Below, piece after piece: positions 3 to 6,006 of a DNA stretch of 64,000 nt. The stretch is taken from assembly GCA_034002365.1 (NCBI GenBank), contig JAVFAR010000003.1, forward strand, positions 490 through 64,489. The letters run 5' to 3'. The number at the start of each line of letters is the position of its first letter. Within the stretch, counting starts at the first letter, position 1. The translations under genes were made by a program, and so were the position numbers. The stretch is from Trichloromonas sp. GTDB taxonomy: Bacteria > Desulfobacterota > Desulfuromonadia > Desulfuromonadales > Trichloromonadaceae. The notes beneath the pieces were generated by a model that was not told the DNA's origin, did no database searches, and saw only the letters and a program-made list of their open reading frames with translations.

Positions 3-200
3 GTCATCAACCAGTCCAACACTCAAGGCGCCGCCAACATCGCCATCGGCCAGGACAACACCGCCAACATGGGCTCCACCAATATCCAAAACTCCGCCGT
101 CAAGGGCGCGGTGATCAACACCTCCAACGCTCAGGGCGCGGCCAACATCGCCATCGGCAAAGGCAACGAAGCCAATATGGGCTCGGTGAACGTGAAGTAA
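3..200 (+). CDS. 3' end (partial) of an Asn/Gly/Ala-rich repeat protein, candidate major amyloid/fibre subunit
   Basis: Not in the ORF track. The frame from nt 3 reads VINQSNTQGAANIAIGQDNTANMGSTNIQNSAVKGA-VINTSNAQGAANIAIGKGNEANMGSVNVK-stop (TAA 198-200). It has a 108-nt/36-aa imperfect repeat and GC-rich third codon positions. The gene starts before the window. Confidence 0.8.
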   Translation, partial: VINQSNTQGAANIAIGQDNTANMGSTNIQNSAVKGAVINTSNAQGAANIAIGKGNEANMGSVNVK

Positions 201-212
201 TCCGCTTGATCC

Positions 213-239
213 GCCGCCCCCGCCGAGAGCGGGGGCGGC
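213..239 (+). terminator. GC-rich hairpin after the repeat gene, no U-tract (stabilising hairpin or partial terminator)
   Basis: GCCGCCCCCGC-cgaga-GCGGGGGCGGC is a perfect 11-bp stem. A second imperfect hairpin lies at 261-294. Confidence 0.6.
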
Positions 240-310: not shown

Positions 311-664
311 ATGGTGATGACAGGCAAATACTGGGCCACTCTCTTTCTGCTCGTCGGTCTGCTCCTGGCCGGCACCGGTGTCGTCCTGGCGGATGACCTG
401 GATGACGGCATCGGCAAATTCACGGATGACGGCGTGGATAAATACGATGAACTGGGGGAAAAGGACCGCAACATCAGCTTTATCGTCCAGGACGCCAAAA
501 GCCGCGCCAACGTGCGCGCCCAGGCCGGACAGGAGCAAGGCATGGCCGGAACCAGCGGCGGAGGAAACATGAACAGCGTGATCATGGGCCCGGGCGGCAA
601 GGTCAGAGGGGACATCATCATCATCGACCAAAGCAGGGGTGACAAGACCCAGGTGGTTGAATAA
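311..664 (+). CDS. Secreted protein with one degenerate copy of the upstream repeat (candidate minor subunit/nucleator)
   Basis: RBS AAAGGA and Sec-type signal peptide ending VLA. The C-terminus NMNSVIMGPGGKVRGDIIIIDQSRG aligns with the repeat NMGSTNIQNSAVKGAVINTSNAQG. Confidence 0.7.
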   Translation: MVMTGKYWATLFLLVGLLLAGTGVVLADDLDDGIGKFTDDGVDKYDELGEKDRNISFIVQDAKSRANVRAQAGQEQGMAGTSGGGNMNSVIMGPGGKVRGDIIIIDQSRGDKTQVVE

Positions 665-711: not shown

Positions 712-2121
712 ATGGAAAGTGTTGCCCGCTCTTGTCGATTTCTGCTGTTGCCGCTTTTCCTGCTGCTGGCCGCTTGCGCCGGCCTCGATCCGGCTAATGT
801 GGACGTGCAGTTGCCAGAGTCGGCGCCTCAGGCGAAATCAACCTCCTACACCCAGGCCTTGCGCGATCTGGGGCTCATGACCGAAATTTACGGCTCTCAG
901 ATAGTCAAGATCCAGAGCAATCCCATCGGCGACAATACCGGAACTTCGGGCAGTACCGGCGGGGAAATCCCTCGGGACATCACCGAAATGATCAAAAGTT
1001 CGCTGAACTCCATCGGCGGGCAGGTGACTTTCATCCCTTACGATCCCGCCTTCATCCAGAACCAGATGGTGACCGGCTACTCCACCTTCGATAACAAGCT
1101 GATTCCCGATGTCGTCATCAGCGGCGGCATCACCGAGTTCGACCGCGGCCTGGAAACGCGCGGCAAGGGGACCGATGCCGGAGCCGAAGCCACTTTCACC
1201 AACGCTCCCGGCTGGGTTCCCTCCAAGTCGGTCAGCCTTGATTACAGCGACACGGACAAAATCGGACTGGCCCGCATCACTCTCGATTTCAACCTGCTCG
1301 ACTTTCAGACCATGGCCGGGATTCCCCGCATGAATACCACCAACAGCATGGAAGTGAGCAAGGGCATGGCCGAACGGGAAATCGGCATCACCCTCTTCGG
1401 CCCCACCTTCGGCCGCAAAGGCTCGATCAAAAAGGTTCAAGGTCGCCATGCGGCGGTACGGCTGCTGGTGGAAGCCAGCATGATGCAGATTGTCGGAAAA
1501 TACCTCAATCTCCCCTATTGGAAGCTGCTTGGCGAAGATGCCGAACCGGATCAGGTGGTCATGGATTCCATCTCCCAGGAGTTCTACCGCAGCACGGAGG
1601 CGCAACGGATCGCCAAGGCGCAGGTCTGGCTCTTCCTCATGGGCCACAACGTTCCGGTGAACGGCGTTCTCGACCAGCCGACACTGGCGGCCCTGACCGC
1701 GGTCGATTCTTCCGTCTCCATGCAGACGGCGAGCATCAGCGTTGAAACCTACGGCAAGCTTTTCCAGTCCGTCCCCATTAAACCGGCCACCCTCGGGCGA
1801 CGGAATATGCTTCTCAGCGGCGTGACTCCGCCCGCCACCCCTGTCGCCGCGCCGCCGCTGACGGCACCGACCCCGACTCCCGCCGCGGTGCAGTCCGCTC
1901 CGGCACCGACCCCGGATCCCAAACCCGCCGCGACGCCGGCTCCGGCCCCCTCGCAGCCGGCGTCGCGGACAGCTCAGGCCAGCAAAGCTGCAGCGGCTGC
2001 CGCAGCCAGTAAGCCGACACCGCCACCGGCACCGGCACCCAAAGCCGCACCGGCGACGGCCCCGGCACCAGCATCGAGCGGTGGTTCGGTCGGGCGGAAG
2101 CTCAGTGACGAGGAATGGTGA
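712..2121 (+). CDS. CsgG/HfaB-family lipoprotein with peptidoglycan-binding-like domain and Pro/Ala-rich tail
   Basis: Lipobox LAAC. CsgG-like motifs IGDNTG, ITEMIKSSL, DVVISGGITEFD, ITLDFNLLD, AVRLLVE. PG-binding-like motif QVWLFLMGH-VNGVLDQPTLAAL. About 90 aa of P/A/T-rich C-terminus. Confidence 0.72.
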   Translation: MESVARSCRFLLLPLFLLLAACAGLDPANVDVQLPESAPQAKSTSYTQALRDLGLMTEIYGSQIVKIQSNPIGDNTGTSGSTGGEIPRDITEMIKSSLNSIGGQVTFIPYDPAFIQNQMVTGYSTFDNKLIPDVVISGGITEFDRGLETRGKGTDAGAEATFTNAPGWVPSKSVSLDYSDTDKIGLARITLDFNLLDFQTMAGIPRMNTTNSMEVSKGMAEREIGITLFGPTFGRKGSIKKVQGRHAAVRLLVEASMMQIVGKYLNLPYWKLLGEDAEPDQVVMDSISQEFYRSTEAQRIAKAQVWLFLMGHNVPVNGVLDQPTLAALTAVDSSVSMQTASISVETYGKLFQSVPIKPATLGRRNMLLSGVTPPATPVAAPPLTAPTPTPAAVQSAPAPTPDPKPAATPAPAPSQPASRTAQASKAAAAAAASKPTPPPAPAPKAAPATAPAPASSGGSVGRKLSDEEW

Positions 2122-2125
2122 GAAA

Positions 2126-2434
2126 ATGCCGACCAAGGGTCAACATATTGTGGCGATCTCCCTGCTGGTCTGCGCCTTTGGTCCCGGCGCCGCCCTGGCG
2201 ACCGCCGGCAATCGTGTCATGGTCGAGGAGAGGGTGAAGGAGCTGTCCGAGCTCAATCAACAACTGCTCGAACAGGAAGAGCTTCCCCGGGACGGAAAGC
2301 TCGAACTTAAAGCCGAGGCCCGATACCTTCAGGACGGATCGATCAATCTGCAGGTTTACAGCCGAAAATTTTCCGCCATCGATGAAAAACCCATCACCTT
2401 TGACGGGCAGCAAACCAGAATGCCCGCCCAATAG
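2126..2434 (+). CDS. Hypothetical exported protein
   Basis: ATG 4 nt after the previous stop, signal-peptide-like N-terminus, operonic spacing. Confidence 0.6.
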   Translation: MPTKGQHIVAISLLVCAFGPGAALATAGNRVMVEERVKELSELNQQLLEQEELPRDGKLELKAEARYLQDGSINLQVYSRKFSAIDEKPITFDGQQTRMPAQ

Positions 2435-2445
2435 AGGAGCCTGAC

Positions 2446-3189
2446 ATGCCGAGCAAGTATCCTGGTTTTTTTCTGGCTGCGTTGTGCTGCCTGCTGCTGG
2501 TGGCACCTCCAGCCATGGCCGGCAACAAACGCATCATGAGCGTCAAGGCCGCGAAGGTCATGGCGGAACGGGCTTTGGTTGAATCGGTCTACGGGCTCAA
2601 GCTGCGGGCCGAGGAACGGGTCGAGGACATGGTTTCCGCGAGCTTCATCGGCAATACCGAATCGAAGACCGCCGCCCAGATCAAGGGGATCGTCTTCGAA
2701 GAAGTCATCTATGACGCCAACCAGGATATCGCTCAGGTGACGGCTTCGGTGAAAATGCCGAGCATCACCAACATCGACGGCCAGACGGTGAACCTCGGCA
2801 ACAAGGTCTTCCGGCGCGTCGGCTTCGCCACCTCCACCCCCAAGGCGGCCGGTCCACTCAAGGCTCTGCGGGCGGCGGAACTCGACGCCTACAAGGAACT
2901 GATCAAACAACTGGTCGGTTTCGAGCTGGAAAGCCATACCACCGTGGAAAACTTCATGTTGACTTCCGACGTGGTTAAAACCAAGGTCATGGCGACCCTC
3001 TTCATGGCGGAACTCACCGAATACGGCTGGACCCCGGAGGGGGACGGCTATGTAAAGATGCAGCTCAACCTGAAGGAAGCCTCGGAAGTTCTGGGGCAGA
3101 ACATTATCACCGACCGGGAAATCATCGACGTCGAAGGGCAGGGCGCTCAGGTTGATGATTTCACCGCCGCTAACGGCGAAAAAAGATGA
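2446..3189 (+). CDS. Exported protein with two tandem LPP20/FlgP-like domains
   Basis: RBS GAGGAG and signal peptide ending AMA. Two similar segments: KAAKVMAERALVESVYGLKLRAEERVEDM and RAAELDAYKELIKQLVGFELESHTTVENF. Confidence 0.7.
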   Translation: MPSKYPGFFLAALCCLLLVAPPAMAGNKRIMSVKAAKVMAERALVESVYGLKLRAEERVEDMVSASFIGNTESKTAAQIKGIVFEEVIYDANQDIAQVTASVKMPSITNIDGQTVNLGNKVFRRVGFATSTPKAAGPLKALRAAELDAYKELIKQLVGFELESHTTVENFMLTSDVVKTKVMATLFMAELTEYGWTPEGDGYVKMQLNLKEASEVLGQNIITDREIIDVEGQGAQVDDFTAANGEKR

Positions 3190-3515
3190 ATTCCGGAGAC
3201 CCGATGGATATTCAACCGCAAAAAGGTCGATTCAAATATTTCTGTTTGGGTTTGCTCGCCGCCTTGGCCGTGATGCTGCTGGCCGGAGCCGGAGACATCG
3301 TCGGCGCGAATAATTTCGGCCCCCCGAACTATGGCCGCTATCAGATCTCTTCCTGGAGTTCCGACTTCGGTGATAAAGGCGGCGGCTTCGGCCTGTTCAT
3401 GGCCGACACCGCGACCGGCGAGGCCAAACTGGTTTACAGCCGGGTTTTCGGCGAGGTCGGCAACGGCGATGTGAAAAAGGATGAACTGGGGAAGCCTTTC
3501 GGCAGCATCAGGTAG
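3186..3515 (+). CDS. Hypothetical membrane-anchored or exported protein
   Basis: ATGA overlap with the previous gene. Hydrophobic helix FCLGLLAALAVMLLAGAG followed by GRYQISSW and DTATGE. Confidence 0.65.
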   Translation: MNSGDPMDIQPQKGRFKYFCLGLLAALAVMLLAGAGDIVGANNFGPPNYGRYQISSWSSDFGDKGGGFGLFMADTATGEAKLVYSRVFGEVGNGDVKKDELGKPFGSIR

Positions 3516-3570: not shown

Positions 3571-4287
3571 ATGCGCGCTCGACATCTTAAAACGTTCCTG
3601 ATTCTTTCCTGCTCCGGATTACTGCTTCTCTCGGGACAAAGCTGGGGGGCCGTGCAGATCAACATCGGCTCGAATATCGTCAATACCGGTAACGTCAGCG
3701 GCTGCGTTGAGGGGAGCGGCTCCGCCAAGGAAGAAAGCCGCTCCCTGCCGGCCTTTCACGGATTGGATGTCGAAGGAGCCTACACCGTTCGGATCGACGT
3801 CCAAAAGGATCAGAGCGTCGAAATCTCCGCCGACGACAACCTGCTCCCCTTGATCACGACCGAAGTTCAAGACGGAATCTTGCGCGTCACCTCGAAAAAA
3901 TCGATTTGTGCCAGCGCCCCCATGGTCCTGACCATCACGGTGGAGACCCTTGACCAGATCCGCTCCAGCGGCGCCAACGAGTTTCAGGTACGAAACCTCA
4001 AGGGGGACGCCTTGGCGGTCGATCTATCCGGGTCCAGCAACATGACCCTGGATGGGACGGTGGAGGAACTGAAGGCCAAAATCGACGGAGCTTCGGGACT
4101 GGCCGCCGGGCGACTGAAGGCGAAAGAGGTTTCCGTGGCGATCAGCGGCGCCGGATCCGCCGAGGTCTATGCCGGCAAACGGCTTCAGGGGGACATCAGC
4201 GGCGTCGGCAGTATCCGTTACTCCGGGCAACCGGGGGAAGTGGTGAAAAACATCACCGGTTGGGGGGATATCACCCCCGTCGATTGA
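3571..4287 (+). CDS. DUF2807 / head-GIN-domain beta-helix exported protein
   Basis: RBS AAGGAG and signal peptide. Motifs GSG...E.R.L..F, SADDNLLPLITTEV..G.L and repeated SGA/SGS strands ending ISGVGSIRYSGQP. Confidence 0.85.
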   Translation: MRARHLKTFLILSCSGLLLLSGQSWGAVQINIGSNIVNTGNVSGCVEGSGSAKEESRSLPAFHGLDVEGAYTVRIDVQKDQSVEISADDNLLPLITTEVQDGILRVTSKKSICASAPMVLTITVETLDQIRSSGANEFQVRNLKGDALAVDLSGSSNMTLDGTVEELKAKIDGASGLAAGRLKAKEVSVAISGAGSAEVYAGKRLQGDISGVGSIRYSGQPGEVVKNITGWGDITPVD

Positions 4288-5257: not shown

Positions 5258-5761
5258 TCAGTCGATCTTCTTGAAAGCGCTCTTCGCGGCGTTGCAGACC
5301 GGACAGGAACCGGCGGGCTCGCCTTCGTGGGTATGGCCGCAAACCTGGCAGACATAGTAGTCCACGGCCTCGTTGCGCCCCAGGTTGTCGAGGGCCTTCT
5401 GATAGAGCGCGGCATGCTCCTGCTCGACGGCATTGGCGAACTTGAAGTTGCGCAGGGCCGCCTGCTCCCCTTCCGCCTCGGCTTCGGCGATCATCCGCGG
5501 ATACATGCTGGTGAATTCGTGGGTTTCCCCGCCGATGGCGGTGCGCAGGTTTTCCGCCGTGTCGTTAATGCCGCCCATGGTCCGCAAATGGGCATGGGCA
5601 TGGACGGTCTCGGCATCGGCCGCCGCCCGAAAGAGCTTGGCCACCTGCAATAGACCTTCCTGCTCGGCTTTTTTCGCGAAAGCCAGATAGGTACGGTTGG
5701 CCTGGGCTTCCCCGGCGAAGGCTTCCTGAAGATTTTTACGGGTTTTGCTTGCTTCGGTCAT
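5258..5761 (-). CDS. rbr: Rubrerythrin
   Basis: Di-iron motifs NLQEAFAGEAQA, ETVHA, GETHE, EQEH and rubredoxin-like CQVCG...CPVC. Upstream TTGACA-N16-TAAAAT (5881-5854). Confidence 0.92.
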   Translation of the reverse strand: MTEASKTRKNLQEAFAGEAQANRTYLAFAKKAEQEGLLQVAKLFRAAADAETVHAHAHLRTMGGINDTAENLRTAIGGETHEFTSMYPRMIAEAEAEGEQAALRNFKFANAVEQEHAALYQKALDNLGRNEAVDYYVCQVCGHTHEGEPAGSCPVCNAAKSAFKKID

Positions 5762-6006
5762 TCCGTTACTCCCTGATTGGATGGGTTGAGTCTTTTTCAT
5801 GTTCCCGCTATCGGCGCTTGCGCCCGGGAACTTCGTCATGTTCACAGACTTGAATTTTAACCGGCCCAGGTTTTCTGTCAATCGAAACGGAGCTCCGCCA
5901 CAGGGGCCAGGCCGCCTTTTGCTTGCTTCACTTGGAAAAAGGGCTTAGCATTAATCGCTCGCATCCTCGACGATCAACTCCCCTTTCCCGATCAGGAGAC
6001 GGCTCG

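What the first reader, a model, noticed from the sequence alone, without database searches (positions are those of the whole stretch)
3..200. Hidden 36-aa repeat protein with cross-beta/beta-solenoid signature, missed by the ORF track
Seen: unit 1 is VINQSNTQGAANIAIGQDNTANMGSTNIQNSAVKGA (3-110) and unit 2 is VINTSNAQGAANIAIGKGNEANMGSVNVK (111-197). The motif VINxSNxQGAANIAIGxxNxANMGSxNx is conserved despite synonymous DNA changes. The 65 visible residues have no Pro, aromatic or Cys, only five charged residues and 13 Asn. Known: Asn/Gln ladders with Gly turns and no Pro typify CsgA and FapC. Inference: this is a new repeat family that stacks as strand-arc-strand rungs, matching neither the curlin nor the Fap consensus exactly.
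Basis: partly seen in the sequence, partly recalled or inferred. Interest (0 to 1): 0.8.

Follow-up and report, generated by a model that had tools for sequence, protein, structure and literature searches.

The report
Repeat-only fibre subunit beside CsgG-like channel
The finding is the tail end of a small secreted protein built only of 36-residue repeats, which heads a conserved, unnamed operon with a distant relative of the curli export channel CsgG, so it is probably the building block of an undescribed bacterial surface fibre, though this rests on computation alone.

Summary
Window 3-200 encodes the last two 36-aa repeats of a gene cut by the window edge. The whole protein is about 237 aa: a Sec signal peptide followed by six contiguous repeats and nothing else. 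It comes from a Trichloromonas/Desulfuromonadaceae metagenome-assembled genome (MAG).

- **Family:** it matches no Pfam or NCBIfam family and is not a curlin (hhalign probability 0.2%). Relatives with 4 to 21 repeats occur in Desulfobacterota MAGs.
- **Fold:** AlphaFold2 (pLDDT 92) predicts an uncapped parallel beta-solenoid with one rung per 36-aa repeat.
- **Self-association:** a two-copy prediction stacks subunits head to tail in register (ipSAE 0.54, best control 0.00).
- **Context:** 22 of 35 loci keep the same downstream genes. These include a lipoprotein that is a divergent CsgG homologue (hhalign 95.7%, E 9e-9; CsgG is the top structural hit with two aligners) fused to a peptidoglycan-binding domain. 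The other genes encode a FlgP/LPP20-like protein and a DUF2807 beta-helix protein.
- **Expression signal:** a strong hairpin follows the subunit gene in 16 of 17 loci.

Best reading (about 50%): the major subunit of a curli-like, CsgG-dependent fibre system with a non-curlin subunit. Amyloid behaviour is untested.

This scan has noted the same kind of system before on other DNA. Novelty: a new variant of a known kind.

The parts
3..200 (+). 3' end (last 65 codons plus stop) of the repeat-subunit gene. The full gene is about 237 codons, starts upstream of the window and is split over contigs C206 and C3.
   Evidence: AF2 model with pLDDT 92.
213..239 (+). Perfect 11-bp GC stem-loop directly after the subunit gene's stop codon. 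Candidate attenuator or mRNA-stabilising hairpin that would give an excess of subunit over machinery.
   Evidence: -30.7 kcal/mol, z -3.1, 1 of 200 shuffles folds as well. A strong hairpin of different sequence stands at the same place in 16 of 17 orthologous loci.
311..664 (+). 117-aa secreted protein. It has a conserved acidic N-terminus (DLDDGISKFTDD) and a C-terminal ANMNSV..G.G..VKGDIIIIDQSKG segment that resembles one repeat junction. Candidate nucleator, anchor or cap.
   Evidence: Conserved in 22 of 35 loci. Alignment. Similarity to the repeat is weak (hhalign E 0.012 over 23 columns).
712..2121 (+). 469-aa lipoprotein: a divergent CsgG-family domain (about residues 20-270), a PG_binding_1-like domain (about 280-355) and a Pro/Ala-rich tail.
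   Evidence: hhalign against an 18-sequence CsgG alignment: probability 95.7%, E 8.9e-9, 220 columns. Foldseek's top 25 hits are all CsgG, E 5e-6. VIA-wide top hit is CsgG 6lqh, Z 13.4, and the PG-binding domains score Z 6-7. The Pfam CsgG HMM reaches only 11.5 bits. The model's pLDDT is only 58.
2126..2434 (+). Small exported protein of about 102 aa counted from ATG 2126 (117 aa from GTG 2081). No known family.
   Evidence: Orthologues found in only 6 loci.
2446..3189 (+). 247-aa exported LPP20/FlgP-like protein.
   Evidence: Pfam PF02169 E 6e-5, 23.8 bits, just under the 25.9-bit cut-off. Weak matches to FlgP-type lipoproteins in the PDB, E 4e-3. Syntenic in 17 loci.
3186..3515 (+). 109-aa protein with an N-terminal hydrophobic segment. 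No known family. Its start overlaps the preceding stop (ATGA).
   Evidence: Syntenic in 14 loci.
3571..4287 (+). 238-aa exported DUF2807 (GIN-domain) beta-helix protein.
   Evidence: Pfam PF10988 E 4.6e-33. PDB relatives 4opw, 3ljy, 3jx8, 3lyc and 3pet. A relative of the repeat protein is fused to a DUF2807 domain (P0004).

Best explanation
Window 3-200 is the end of the major-subunit gene of an undescribed curli-like secretion operon, that is, one that depends on a CsgG-type channel (type VIII-like).

Proposed mechanism:
1. The protein is exported by Sec. The signal peptide is cut after AFA.
2. It crosses the outer membrane unfolded, through the channel formed by the neighbouring CsgG-family lipoprotein. 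That lipoprotein is tethered to the cell wall by its own peptidoglycan-binding domain.
3. Outside the cell it folds into a parallel beta-solenoid. Each 36-aa repeat forms one rung of five short strands, with conserved small hydrophobic residues inside and Asn ladders.
4. Both ends of the solenoid are uncapped, so subunits add head to tail into a fibre.
5. The small second-gene protein, which ends in a repeat-like segment, is the likeliest nucleator or anchor.
6. The hairpin after the subunit gene would set a high ratio of subunit to machinery.

Shown here (computationally): the gene, the repeats, the signal peptide, the synteny, the CsgG homology, the predicted fold and the predicted self-stacking. 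Inferred: export route, polymerisation, and the roles of the accessory proteins.
For: - **Gene anatomy:** a signal peptide followed only by six contiguous 36-aa repeats, ending right after ANMGSVNVK, with no capping element.
- **Fold:** the AF2 model has pLDDT 92 and pTM 0.88 and is all-beta. Its best structural matches are parallel beta-helices: Vag8 at Z 13.6, rmsd 2.5 A, 162 residues; bactofilin with 85 of 90 residues at 1.8 A, spread over five repeats.
- **Self-stacking:** the two-copy prediction scored 0.54 against a best control of 0.00. That mark was reached by 20 of 30 proteins solved as pairs of one chain and by 1 of 23 proteins solved as single chains. The runs agree in at least 87% of contacts and partner pLDDT is at least 83. 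The interface joins C-terminal residues 186-228 to N-terminal residues 13-50 with pairs i to i-180. This continues the solenoid in register with a 36-aa rung.
- **Synteny:** the order subunit, 117-aa protein, lipoprotein, LPP20-like protein, 109-aa protein is kept in 22 of 35 loci across Desulfuromonadaceae, Desulfobacterales and Desulfobulbales.
- **Co-occurrence:** in a 250-genome sample of the phylum, the repeat family (E <= 1e-8) was found only in the two genomes that also hold a strong orthologue of the lipoprotein, and adjacent to it.
- **Channel homology:** the lipoprotein is a CsgG homologue by profile-profile comparison (95.7%, E 8.9e-9, 220 columns). Two structural aligners agree.
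- **Variable length:** repeat number ranges from 4 to 21, as in curlins, where it ranges from 4 to 62 (PMC10192328).
- **Hairpin:** a strong hairpin follows the subunit gene in 16 of 17 loci.
Against: - Everything is prediction. There are no expression, localisation or fibre data.
- AlphaFold and ESMFold readily build and stack beta-solenoids from any idealised repeat.
- The lipoprotein model is of low confidence (pLDDT 58). The Pfam CsgG model scores only 11.5 bits against a 20.8-bit cut-off. The region aligned to the E. coli CsgG constriction loop has a different sequence.
- CsgG-fold proteins also include ring proteins that do not secrete anything, such as FlgT and PelC, which also appear among the hits.
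- No accessory protein resembles CsgB, C, E or F.
- The same repeats occur as modules fused to FecR, DUF2807 and a subtilase. There they probably act as a folded stalk rather than a polymer.
- The similarity of the 117-aa protein to the repeat is statistically weak (E 0.012).
Confidence: 0.5

Rival explanations
1. The protein is a secreted or surface-exposed monomeric beta-helix, for example an adhesin, a spacer or a matrix-binding protein. It would be exported by the same CsgG-like machinery but would not polymerise, and repeat number would simply set the rod length (about 2-10 nm).
For: The nearest folds are monomeric beta-helix passengers and adhesins: Vag8, IgA1 protease, HMW1, EtpA and DUF2807 'putative adhesins'. 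The repeats also occur as modules in multidomain exported proteins.
Against: Neither end carries a cap. In-register head-to-tail stacking is predicted, at 0.54 against a best control of 0.00 (20 of 30 proteins solved as pairs of one chain and 1 of 23 solved as single chains reached that mark). The hairpin after the gene suggests bulk production.
Confidence: 0.25
2. The operon builds a periplasmic or sub-outer-membrane ring or scaffold. Its parts would be a CsgG/FlgT-fold lipoprotein bound to peptidoglycan and an FlgP-like ring protein. The repeat protein would be a periplasmic structural element, like a bactofilin polymer but in the periplasm, and would not be secreted.
For: FlgT, PelC and LPHT-ring chains are among the structural hits for the lipoprotein. 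The LPP20-like protein weakly matches FlgP ring proteins. The lipoprotein has a PG-binding domain. Bactofilin is a close partial structural match for the subunit.
Against: CsgG itself stands 3 Z units above FlgT (13.4 against 10.2) and fills the top 25 Foldseek ranks. The profile alignment spans the whole CsgG domain, including the hairpin regions that form the barrel.
Confidence: 0.15
3. The protein belongs to a known repeat class: pentapeptide repeats, or the NSVAIG-type head repeats of trimeric autotransporters.
For: There are weak pentapeptide-repeat hits: PDB 2j8k at E 1e-5, and NCBIfam Alr5209 at E 1e-3 with 19 bits. The motif ANIAIGxxNxAN looks like YadA-head repeats; this comes from memory and is a lead only.
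Against: The scores lie far below the curated cut-offs (19 bits against 125). Pfam gives no hit. The period is 36 aa, not 5 or 20 or 14. The protein is secreted and has no autotransporter anchor. Foldseek TM-scores to pentapeptide proteins are 0.11-0.15.
Confidence: 0.03

Closest known systems
Curli system (type VIII secretion; CsgA/CsgB subunits, CsgG channel, CsgE/F/C; E. coli)
   Same: A Sec-exported, repeat-only, Asn/Gln/Gly/Ala-rich subunit without Pro or Cys. A predicted uncapped beta-solenoid that stacks head to tail. Variable repeat number. A CsgG-family lipoprotein encoded in the same locus (PMC10192328).
   Different: There is no curlin-repeat similarity. The rung is 36 aa with five strands, against about 23 aa strand-arc-strand in curlins. 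The channel homologue is very divergent and carries a PG-binding domain and a Pro/Ala tail. No CsgB/C/E/F-like proteins were found; the partners are instead an FlgP/LPP20-like protein, a DUF2807 protein and three proteins of unknown family.
Fap functional amyloid of Pseudomonas (FapC/FapB, FapE, FapF channel)
   Same: The rung is of similar size. FapC's imperfect repeats each form one Greek-key-shaped layer stabilised by conserved Asn and Gln (PMC12822426). There is also a small partner protein that could nucleate or anchor.
   Different: No sequence match was found. Foldseek against FapC 9u4u gives E 0.28 and TM 0.07-0.10. The repeats are contiguous, without linkers. The channel is of CsgG type, not a FapF beta-barrel.
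Caulobacter holdfast anchor HfaA/HfaB/HfaD (HfaB is a CsgG-family protein)
   Same: It is a non-curli system in which a CsgG-type lipoprotein handles polymer-forming surface proteins (own knowledge).
   Different: Only a non-significant NCBIfam HfaB hit was obtained (E 0.29, 10 bits against a 300-bit cut-off). No HfaA-like or HfaD-like protein was detected.
DUF2807 / GIN-domain beta-helix proteins (PDB 3jx8, 3lyc, 3pet)
   Same: The predicted fold is similar (Z 7.9-8.6). A DUF2807 protein is encoded in the same operon and is fused to the repeats in P0004.
   Different: The subunit has no sequence match to PF10988. DUF2807 proteins are single capped domains, not repeat-only proteins of variable length.

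Membership tests
Curlin (CsgA/CsgB, Pfam Curlin_rpt) | Sequence match to the curlin repeat (N-x-psi-x-psi-x-Q motifs, about 23-aa unit) | tested here: not met
   No Pfam hit at E <= 10. hhalign of the family alignment against E. coli CsgA gives probability 0.2%. The unit is 36 aa.
Curlin (CsgA/CsgB, Pfam Curlin_rpt) | Encoded beside a CsgG-family outer-membrane channel | tested here: met
   hhalign 95.7%, E 8.9e-9. CsgG is the top hit in Foldseek and in VIA-wide. Synteny holds in 22 of 35 loci.
Curlin (CsgA/CsgB, Pfam Curlin_rpt) | CsgB, CsgE and CsgF partners | tested here: inconclusive
   hhalign of each accessory-protein alignment against single E. coli sequences gave probabilities of 3% or less. 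This test has low power.
Curlin (CsgA/CsgB, Pfam Curlin_rpt) | Forms extracellular amyloid fibres (ThT or Congo red binding, cross-beta diffraction) | not testable with these tools
   Only a prediction of head-to-tail stacking is available.
Fap (FapC) | FapC/FapB repeat sequence and a FapF channel in the operon | tested here: not met
   None of the seven operon proteins has a Fap-family hit in Pfam or NCBIfam.
Autotransporter / two-partner-secretion haemagglutinin | C-terminal beta-barrel translocator or N-terminal TPS domain | tested here: not met
   The protein is a signal peptide plus repeats only, about 237 aa, and has no Pfam domain.
Autotransporter / two-partner-secretion haemagglutinin | Right-handed beta-helix passenger fold | tested here: met
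   Vag8 Z 13.6, IgA1 protease Z 12.2 and 10.0, HMW1 Z 9.9. This is a fold-level likeness only.
Pentapeptide repeat proteins | A(D/N)LXX period of 5 residues, with curated model scores | tested here: not met
   NCBIfam gives 19 bits against a cut-off of 125 and 13 bits against 260. The period is 36 aa. TM-scores are 0.11-0.15.
CsgG family (for the neighbouring lipoprotein) | Pfam PF03783 match above the gathering score | tested here: not met
   11.5 bits, E 0.2, against a cut-off of 20.8. No hit in hmmscan.
CsgG family (for the neighbouring lipoprotein) | Lipobox Cys, profile-level homology over the whole domain, and the CsgG fold | tested here: met
   The LAAC lipobox is aligned to that of E. 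coli CsgG, and 220 columns align at probability 95.7%. Foldseek E 5e-6. VIA Z 13.4.
CsgG family (for the neighbouring lipoprotein) | Nonameric 36-stranded outer-membrane channel | not tested
   No oligomer prediction was run. The monomer model has low confidence in the hairpin regions.

The most novel reading that the evidence does not exclude
This would be a second class of CsgG-dependent extracellular beta-solenoid fibre, unrelated to curlin and found in anaerobic sediment Desulfobacterota. It has 36-residue five-strand rungs and subunits of 4 to 21 rungs. Its own accessory set comprises an FlgP-like ring protein, a DUF2807 beta-helix protein and a small nucleator with a repeat-like end. Other exported proteins (a subtilase, FecR-domain proteins) would carry a few of the same rungs as a tag that docks them onto the fibre.
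Probability: 0.35. Interest if true: 0.75.

Novelty: new variant of a known kind. Interest (0 to 1): 0.6.

Why it matters
If this reading is right, secretion through a CsgG-type channel is not tied to curlin. Bacteria would then have evolved at least one more functional amyloid or beta-solenoid fibre on the same export principle, with a rung the size of FapC's but a curli-type channel.

That would widen the known range of bacterial matrix fibres in anoxic sediments and electroactive biofilms. It would also offer a new, highly regular and aromatic-free scaffold of tunable length for protein materials. A PG-tethered CsgG-like pore may interest nanopore engineers too.

The family is unnamed in Pfam and NCBIfam. 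I found no paper describing it in four full-text searches.

Tried and rejected
- **Searches that gave nothing for the subunit:** Pfam and NCBIfam; ESM Atlas, which returned only unnamed clusters scoring 0.88 or less; Foldseek against the PDB, with no hit at E <= 1e-3.
- **Pentapeptide-repeat reading:** weak hits were rejected because of the period and the scores.
- **Lipoprotein against CsgG:** hhalign against E. coli CsgG alone was weak (35%). A PDB profile search found only the PG-binding domain. The relationship became clear only with a CsgG family profile.
- **Accessory proteins against CsgA/B/C/E/F:** nothing.
- **The 117-aa protein against the repeat:** E 0.028 with a single unit and E 0.012 with a double unit, so suggestive only.
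- **Rfam on eight related loci:** no riboswitch or other RNA family near the operon.
- **Alignment-based locus search:** The single protein was used instead.
- **Literature:** four searches found no description of this family or operon.

Full report
**1. The observation**

The 65 residues hold 13 Asn and 5 charged residues, with no Pro, Cys or aromatic residue. The two units are 74% identical in DNA, with 6 synonymous and 8 non-synonymous codon differences over 29 codons.

The frame is open at the window's start. The window is G000:C3:490-64489, and the contig's first 489 nt extend the frame to 228 aa. The end of a second contig, C206, supplies the start codon and the signal peptide MKKQVAIVAGMFVLAGSAAFA|ASDIKG. 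It overlaps the first 314 nt of C3 with two synonymous mismatches, which points to strain variation in a metagenome-assembled genome (MAG).

The whole product is therefore about 237 aa: a Sec signal peptide, then six contiguous 36-aa units in two alternating subtypes, ending directly after ANMGSVNVK. Nothing else is present. The mature 216 aa are 20% Ala, 17% Asn, 14% Gly and 12% Ile, and lack P, C, F, W, Y and H. Because the assembly breaks inside the repeats, six units is a minimum. The closest relatives, at 94-95% identity, have eight.

**2. The family**

Pfam and NCBIfam give nothing meaningful. The only hits are pentapeptide-repeat models at 13-19 bits against cut-offs of 125-260 and weak PDB pentapeptide matches. 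The ESM Atlas returns only unnamed clusters. A profile comparison with E. coli CsgA gives probability 0.2%.

Relatives do exist:
- 21 proteins in the 5.8-billion-protein set, all unnamed.
- 254 cluster representatives at E <= 1e-3, 109 of them at E <= 1e-10, among 1.84 billion proteins.
- 35 loci in species-representative genomes. All are MAGs, labelled Trichloromonas/Desulfuromonadaceae (the window's own group), Desulfospira and other Desulfobacterales, Desulfobulbaceae, Desulforhopalus, Desulfopila and others.

Within the window's genus, 7 of 9 genomes hold the gene. In a 250-genome sample of the phylum, only 2 genomes hold it.

All standalone members share one plan: a signal peptide, then 4 to 21 units of 36 aa, ending just after the ANMGS motif. 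The conserved columns read G-A-V-[IV]-N-x-[GS]-N ... A-A-N-[VI]-A-I-G-x-x-N-x-A-N-[ML]-G-S ... S-x-[VI]-K.

A few relatives carry two to seven units fused to other exported domains. These are FecR in front, a DUF2807 domain in front, or a subtilase with its prodomain behind.

**3. The predicted fold**

AlphaFold2 with a 14-sequence alignment gives pLDDT 92 and pTM 0.88. The model is all-beta, with five strands of 8, 7, 4, 4 and 2 residues per 36-aa unit.

Foldseek finds no significant PDB match. An all-against-all structural alignment ranks parallel beta-helices first:
- Vag8 passenger: Z 13.6, rmsd 2.5 A, 162 residues.
- A Bacteroides IgA1-protease-like protein: Z 12.2.
- MpAFP: Z 10.6.
- HMW1 and EtpA: Z 9.9 and 9.8.
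- DUF2807 structures 3jx8, 3lyc and 3pet: Z 7.9-8.6.
- Bactofilin: 85 of 90 residues at 1.8 A, spread over 185 model residues.

The bactofilin match uses about 17 residues from each 36-aa unit, which implies one rung per unit.

The two-copy complex prediction confirms this. Contacts pair residue i of one copy with i-180 of the other over a whole unit (for example 221 with 41, 202 with 22, 212 with 32). The first unit of one subunit therefore lies in register on the last unit of the other. The score was 0.54 against a best control of 0.00. That mark was reached by 20 of 30 proteins solved as pairs of one chain and by 1 of 23 solved as single chains. The runs agree in at least 87% of contacts, and partner pLDDT is at least 83. 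This supports head-to-tail stacking but does not show it. Such models stack idealised repeats easily, and they do the same for curlins (PMC10192328).

**4. The neighbourhood**

Seven co-oriented genes follow one another closely: the subunit, a 117-aa secreted protein, a 469-aa lipoprotein, a protein of about 102 aa, a 247-aa protein, a 109-aa protein and a 238-aa protein. A conserved 133-aa secreted protein with no known family lies 80 nt upstream of the subunit gene, on contig C206.

tblastn shows the order subunit, 117-aa protein, lipoprotein in 22 of 35 loci. Most of these also hold the LPP20-like and 109-aa genes. The 13 loci without the machinery mostly carry extra, longer copies (15-21 units) in genomes that hold the operon elsewhere.

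In the phylum sample, the two genomes with strong orthologues of the lipoprotein (E <= 1e-170) are exactly the two with the repeat family, and there the repeat gene lies next to the lipoprotein gene.

*The lipoprotein.* Pfam finds nothing by hmmscan, and the CsgG model reaches only 11.5 bits in a genome scan. Three other lines point to CsgG:
- The ESM Atlas pointed to clusters combining CsgG with PG_binding_1 (score 0.92).
- A profile of 15 orthologues, compared with an 18-sequence CsgG alignment (E. coli CsgG plus Pfam-positive members from the phylum), gives probability 95.7%, E 8.9e-9 and 220 aligned columns. The alignment runs from the lipobox Cys to the C-terminal helix.
- The AF2 model is poor (pLDDT 58). 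Even so, Foldseek's top 25 hits are all CsgG (E 5e-6). The aligner that does not depend on Foldseek puts CsgG 6lqh first at Z 13.4, ahead of FlgT (10.2), CT253 and PelC. It matches residues 280-355 to peptidoglycan-binding domains at Z 6-7.

The protein is thus a divergent CsgG-family domain fused to a PG-binding domain and a Pro/Ala-rich tail.

*The other genes.*
- The 247-aa protein is LPP20/FlgP-like (PF02169 at 23.8 bits, just under the cut-off; FlgP-type lipoproteins in the PDB at E 4e-3).
- The 238-aa protein is a clear DUF2807 beta-helix (E 4.6e-33).
- The 117-aa protein is strongly conserved. It has an acidic mature N-terminus (DLDDGISKFTDD) and a C-terminal ANMNSV..G.G..VKGDIIIIDQSKG. 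This segment resembles the junction between two repeats, but only weakly in statistical terms (E 0.012, 23 columns).
- No accessory protein resembles CsgB, C, E or F (low power).

*The hairpin.* A perfect 11-bp GC hairpin stands just after the subunit's stop codon (window 213-239; -30.7 kcal/mol, z -3.1). A strong hairpin of unrelated sequence stands at the same place in 16 of 17 orthologous loci. From general knowledge of pilus and fibre operons, such a structure is a plausible way to express the subunit in excess over the machinery. No Rfam element lies nearby.

**5. Interpretation**

The most economical reading is a curli-like, CsgG-dependent system whose subunit is not a curlin. The steps would be Sec export, passage through the CsgG-type channel, folding outside the cell into an uncapped 36-aa-rung solenoid, and head-to-tail growth. 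The 117-aa protein would be the candidate nucleator or anchor. I put this at about 0.5.

The main rival, at 0.25, is a non-polymerising exported beta-helix, for instance an adhesin or rod. The fold matches and the fusions to enzymes and FecR domains favour it.

A periplasmic ring or scaffold reading, at 0.15, draws on the FlgT, PelC and FlgP likenesses and on the PG-binding domain.

Membership of pentapeptide or autotransporter families is rejected. There is no sequence match and no translocator domain.

**6. Comparison with known systems**

The system shares with curli the type of channel, the repeat-only Asn-rich subunit, the variable repeat number and the predicted stacking mode (PMC10192328). 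It differs in subunit family, in rung size (36 aa against about 23) and in all accessory proteins.

It shares with FapC a rung of similar size and complexity (PMC12822426). It shares no sequence with FapC and does not use its channel type.

**7. Novelty and limits**

I found no description in four literature searches, and no family model covers the protein. Notes from this scan report the same kind of operon on other DNA. These include 36-aa-repeat subunits beside CsgG-fold lipoproteins in sediment anaerobes and cable bacteria. One of those notes was later checked, and its boldest claim was marked down. I treated them as leads only.

Noticed in passing
L004:1-339 (-) and L001:1-320 (contig ends C206 and C3, upstream of window position 1): The subunit gene is split across two contig ends. 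They overlap by 314 nt with two synonymous mismatches, so the assembly broke in the repeats and probably merges strains. The repeat number in this MAG is uncertain.
   Followed up: partly
L004:420-821 (-); orthologue at L020:8256-8657 (+): A 133-aa secreted protein with no Pfam family lies 80 nt upstream of the subunit gene. tblastn detects it in 10 of the 35 related loci, so it may be the first gene of the operon.
   Followed up: partly
Proteins P0022, P0049, P0053, P0014-P0020, P0004: The same 36-aa repeats occur as short modules fused to a subtilase with prodomain (seven units at the N-terminus), to FecR domains (about three units at the C-terminus) and to a DUF2807 domain.
   Followed up: partly
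L032-L037, L042 (for example L035:7971-10304): Desulfobulbales and related MAGs carry extra giant copies (13-21 units, 520-830 aa) away from the operon, among unrelated genes. In L033 two family members lie back to back.
   Followed up: partly
G000 contigs C28, C45, C32, C35 (loci L060-L063): The same genome holds at least four other proteins that pass the Pfam CsgG cut-off. The divergent CsgG-like lipoprotein of this operon is therefore one of several CsgG-fold proteins in the cell.
   Followed up: no
L055, L056, L058 (C-termini of the 506-556-aa paralogues): A divergent subgroup of repeat proteins ends in GGGDAIMNSVVSG..., which resembles the conserved C-terminal motif of the 117-aa operon protein (GGGNMNSVIMGPGG...).
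   Followed up: no
window 5258-5881 (-): A 207-aa ORF ending in CxxC ... CxxC looks like a rubrerythrin. This is judged by eye from the translation and was not tested.
   Followed up: no
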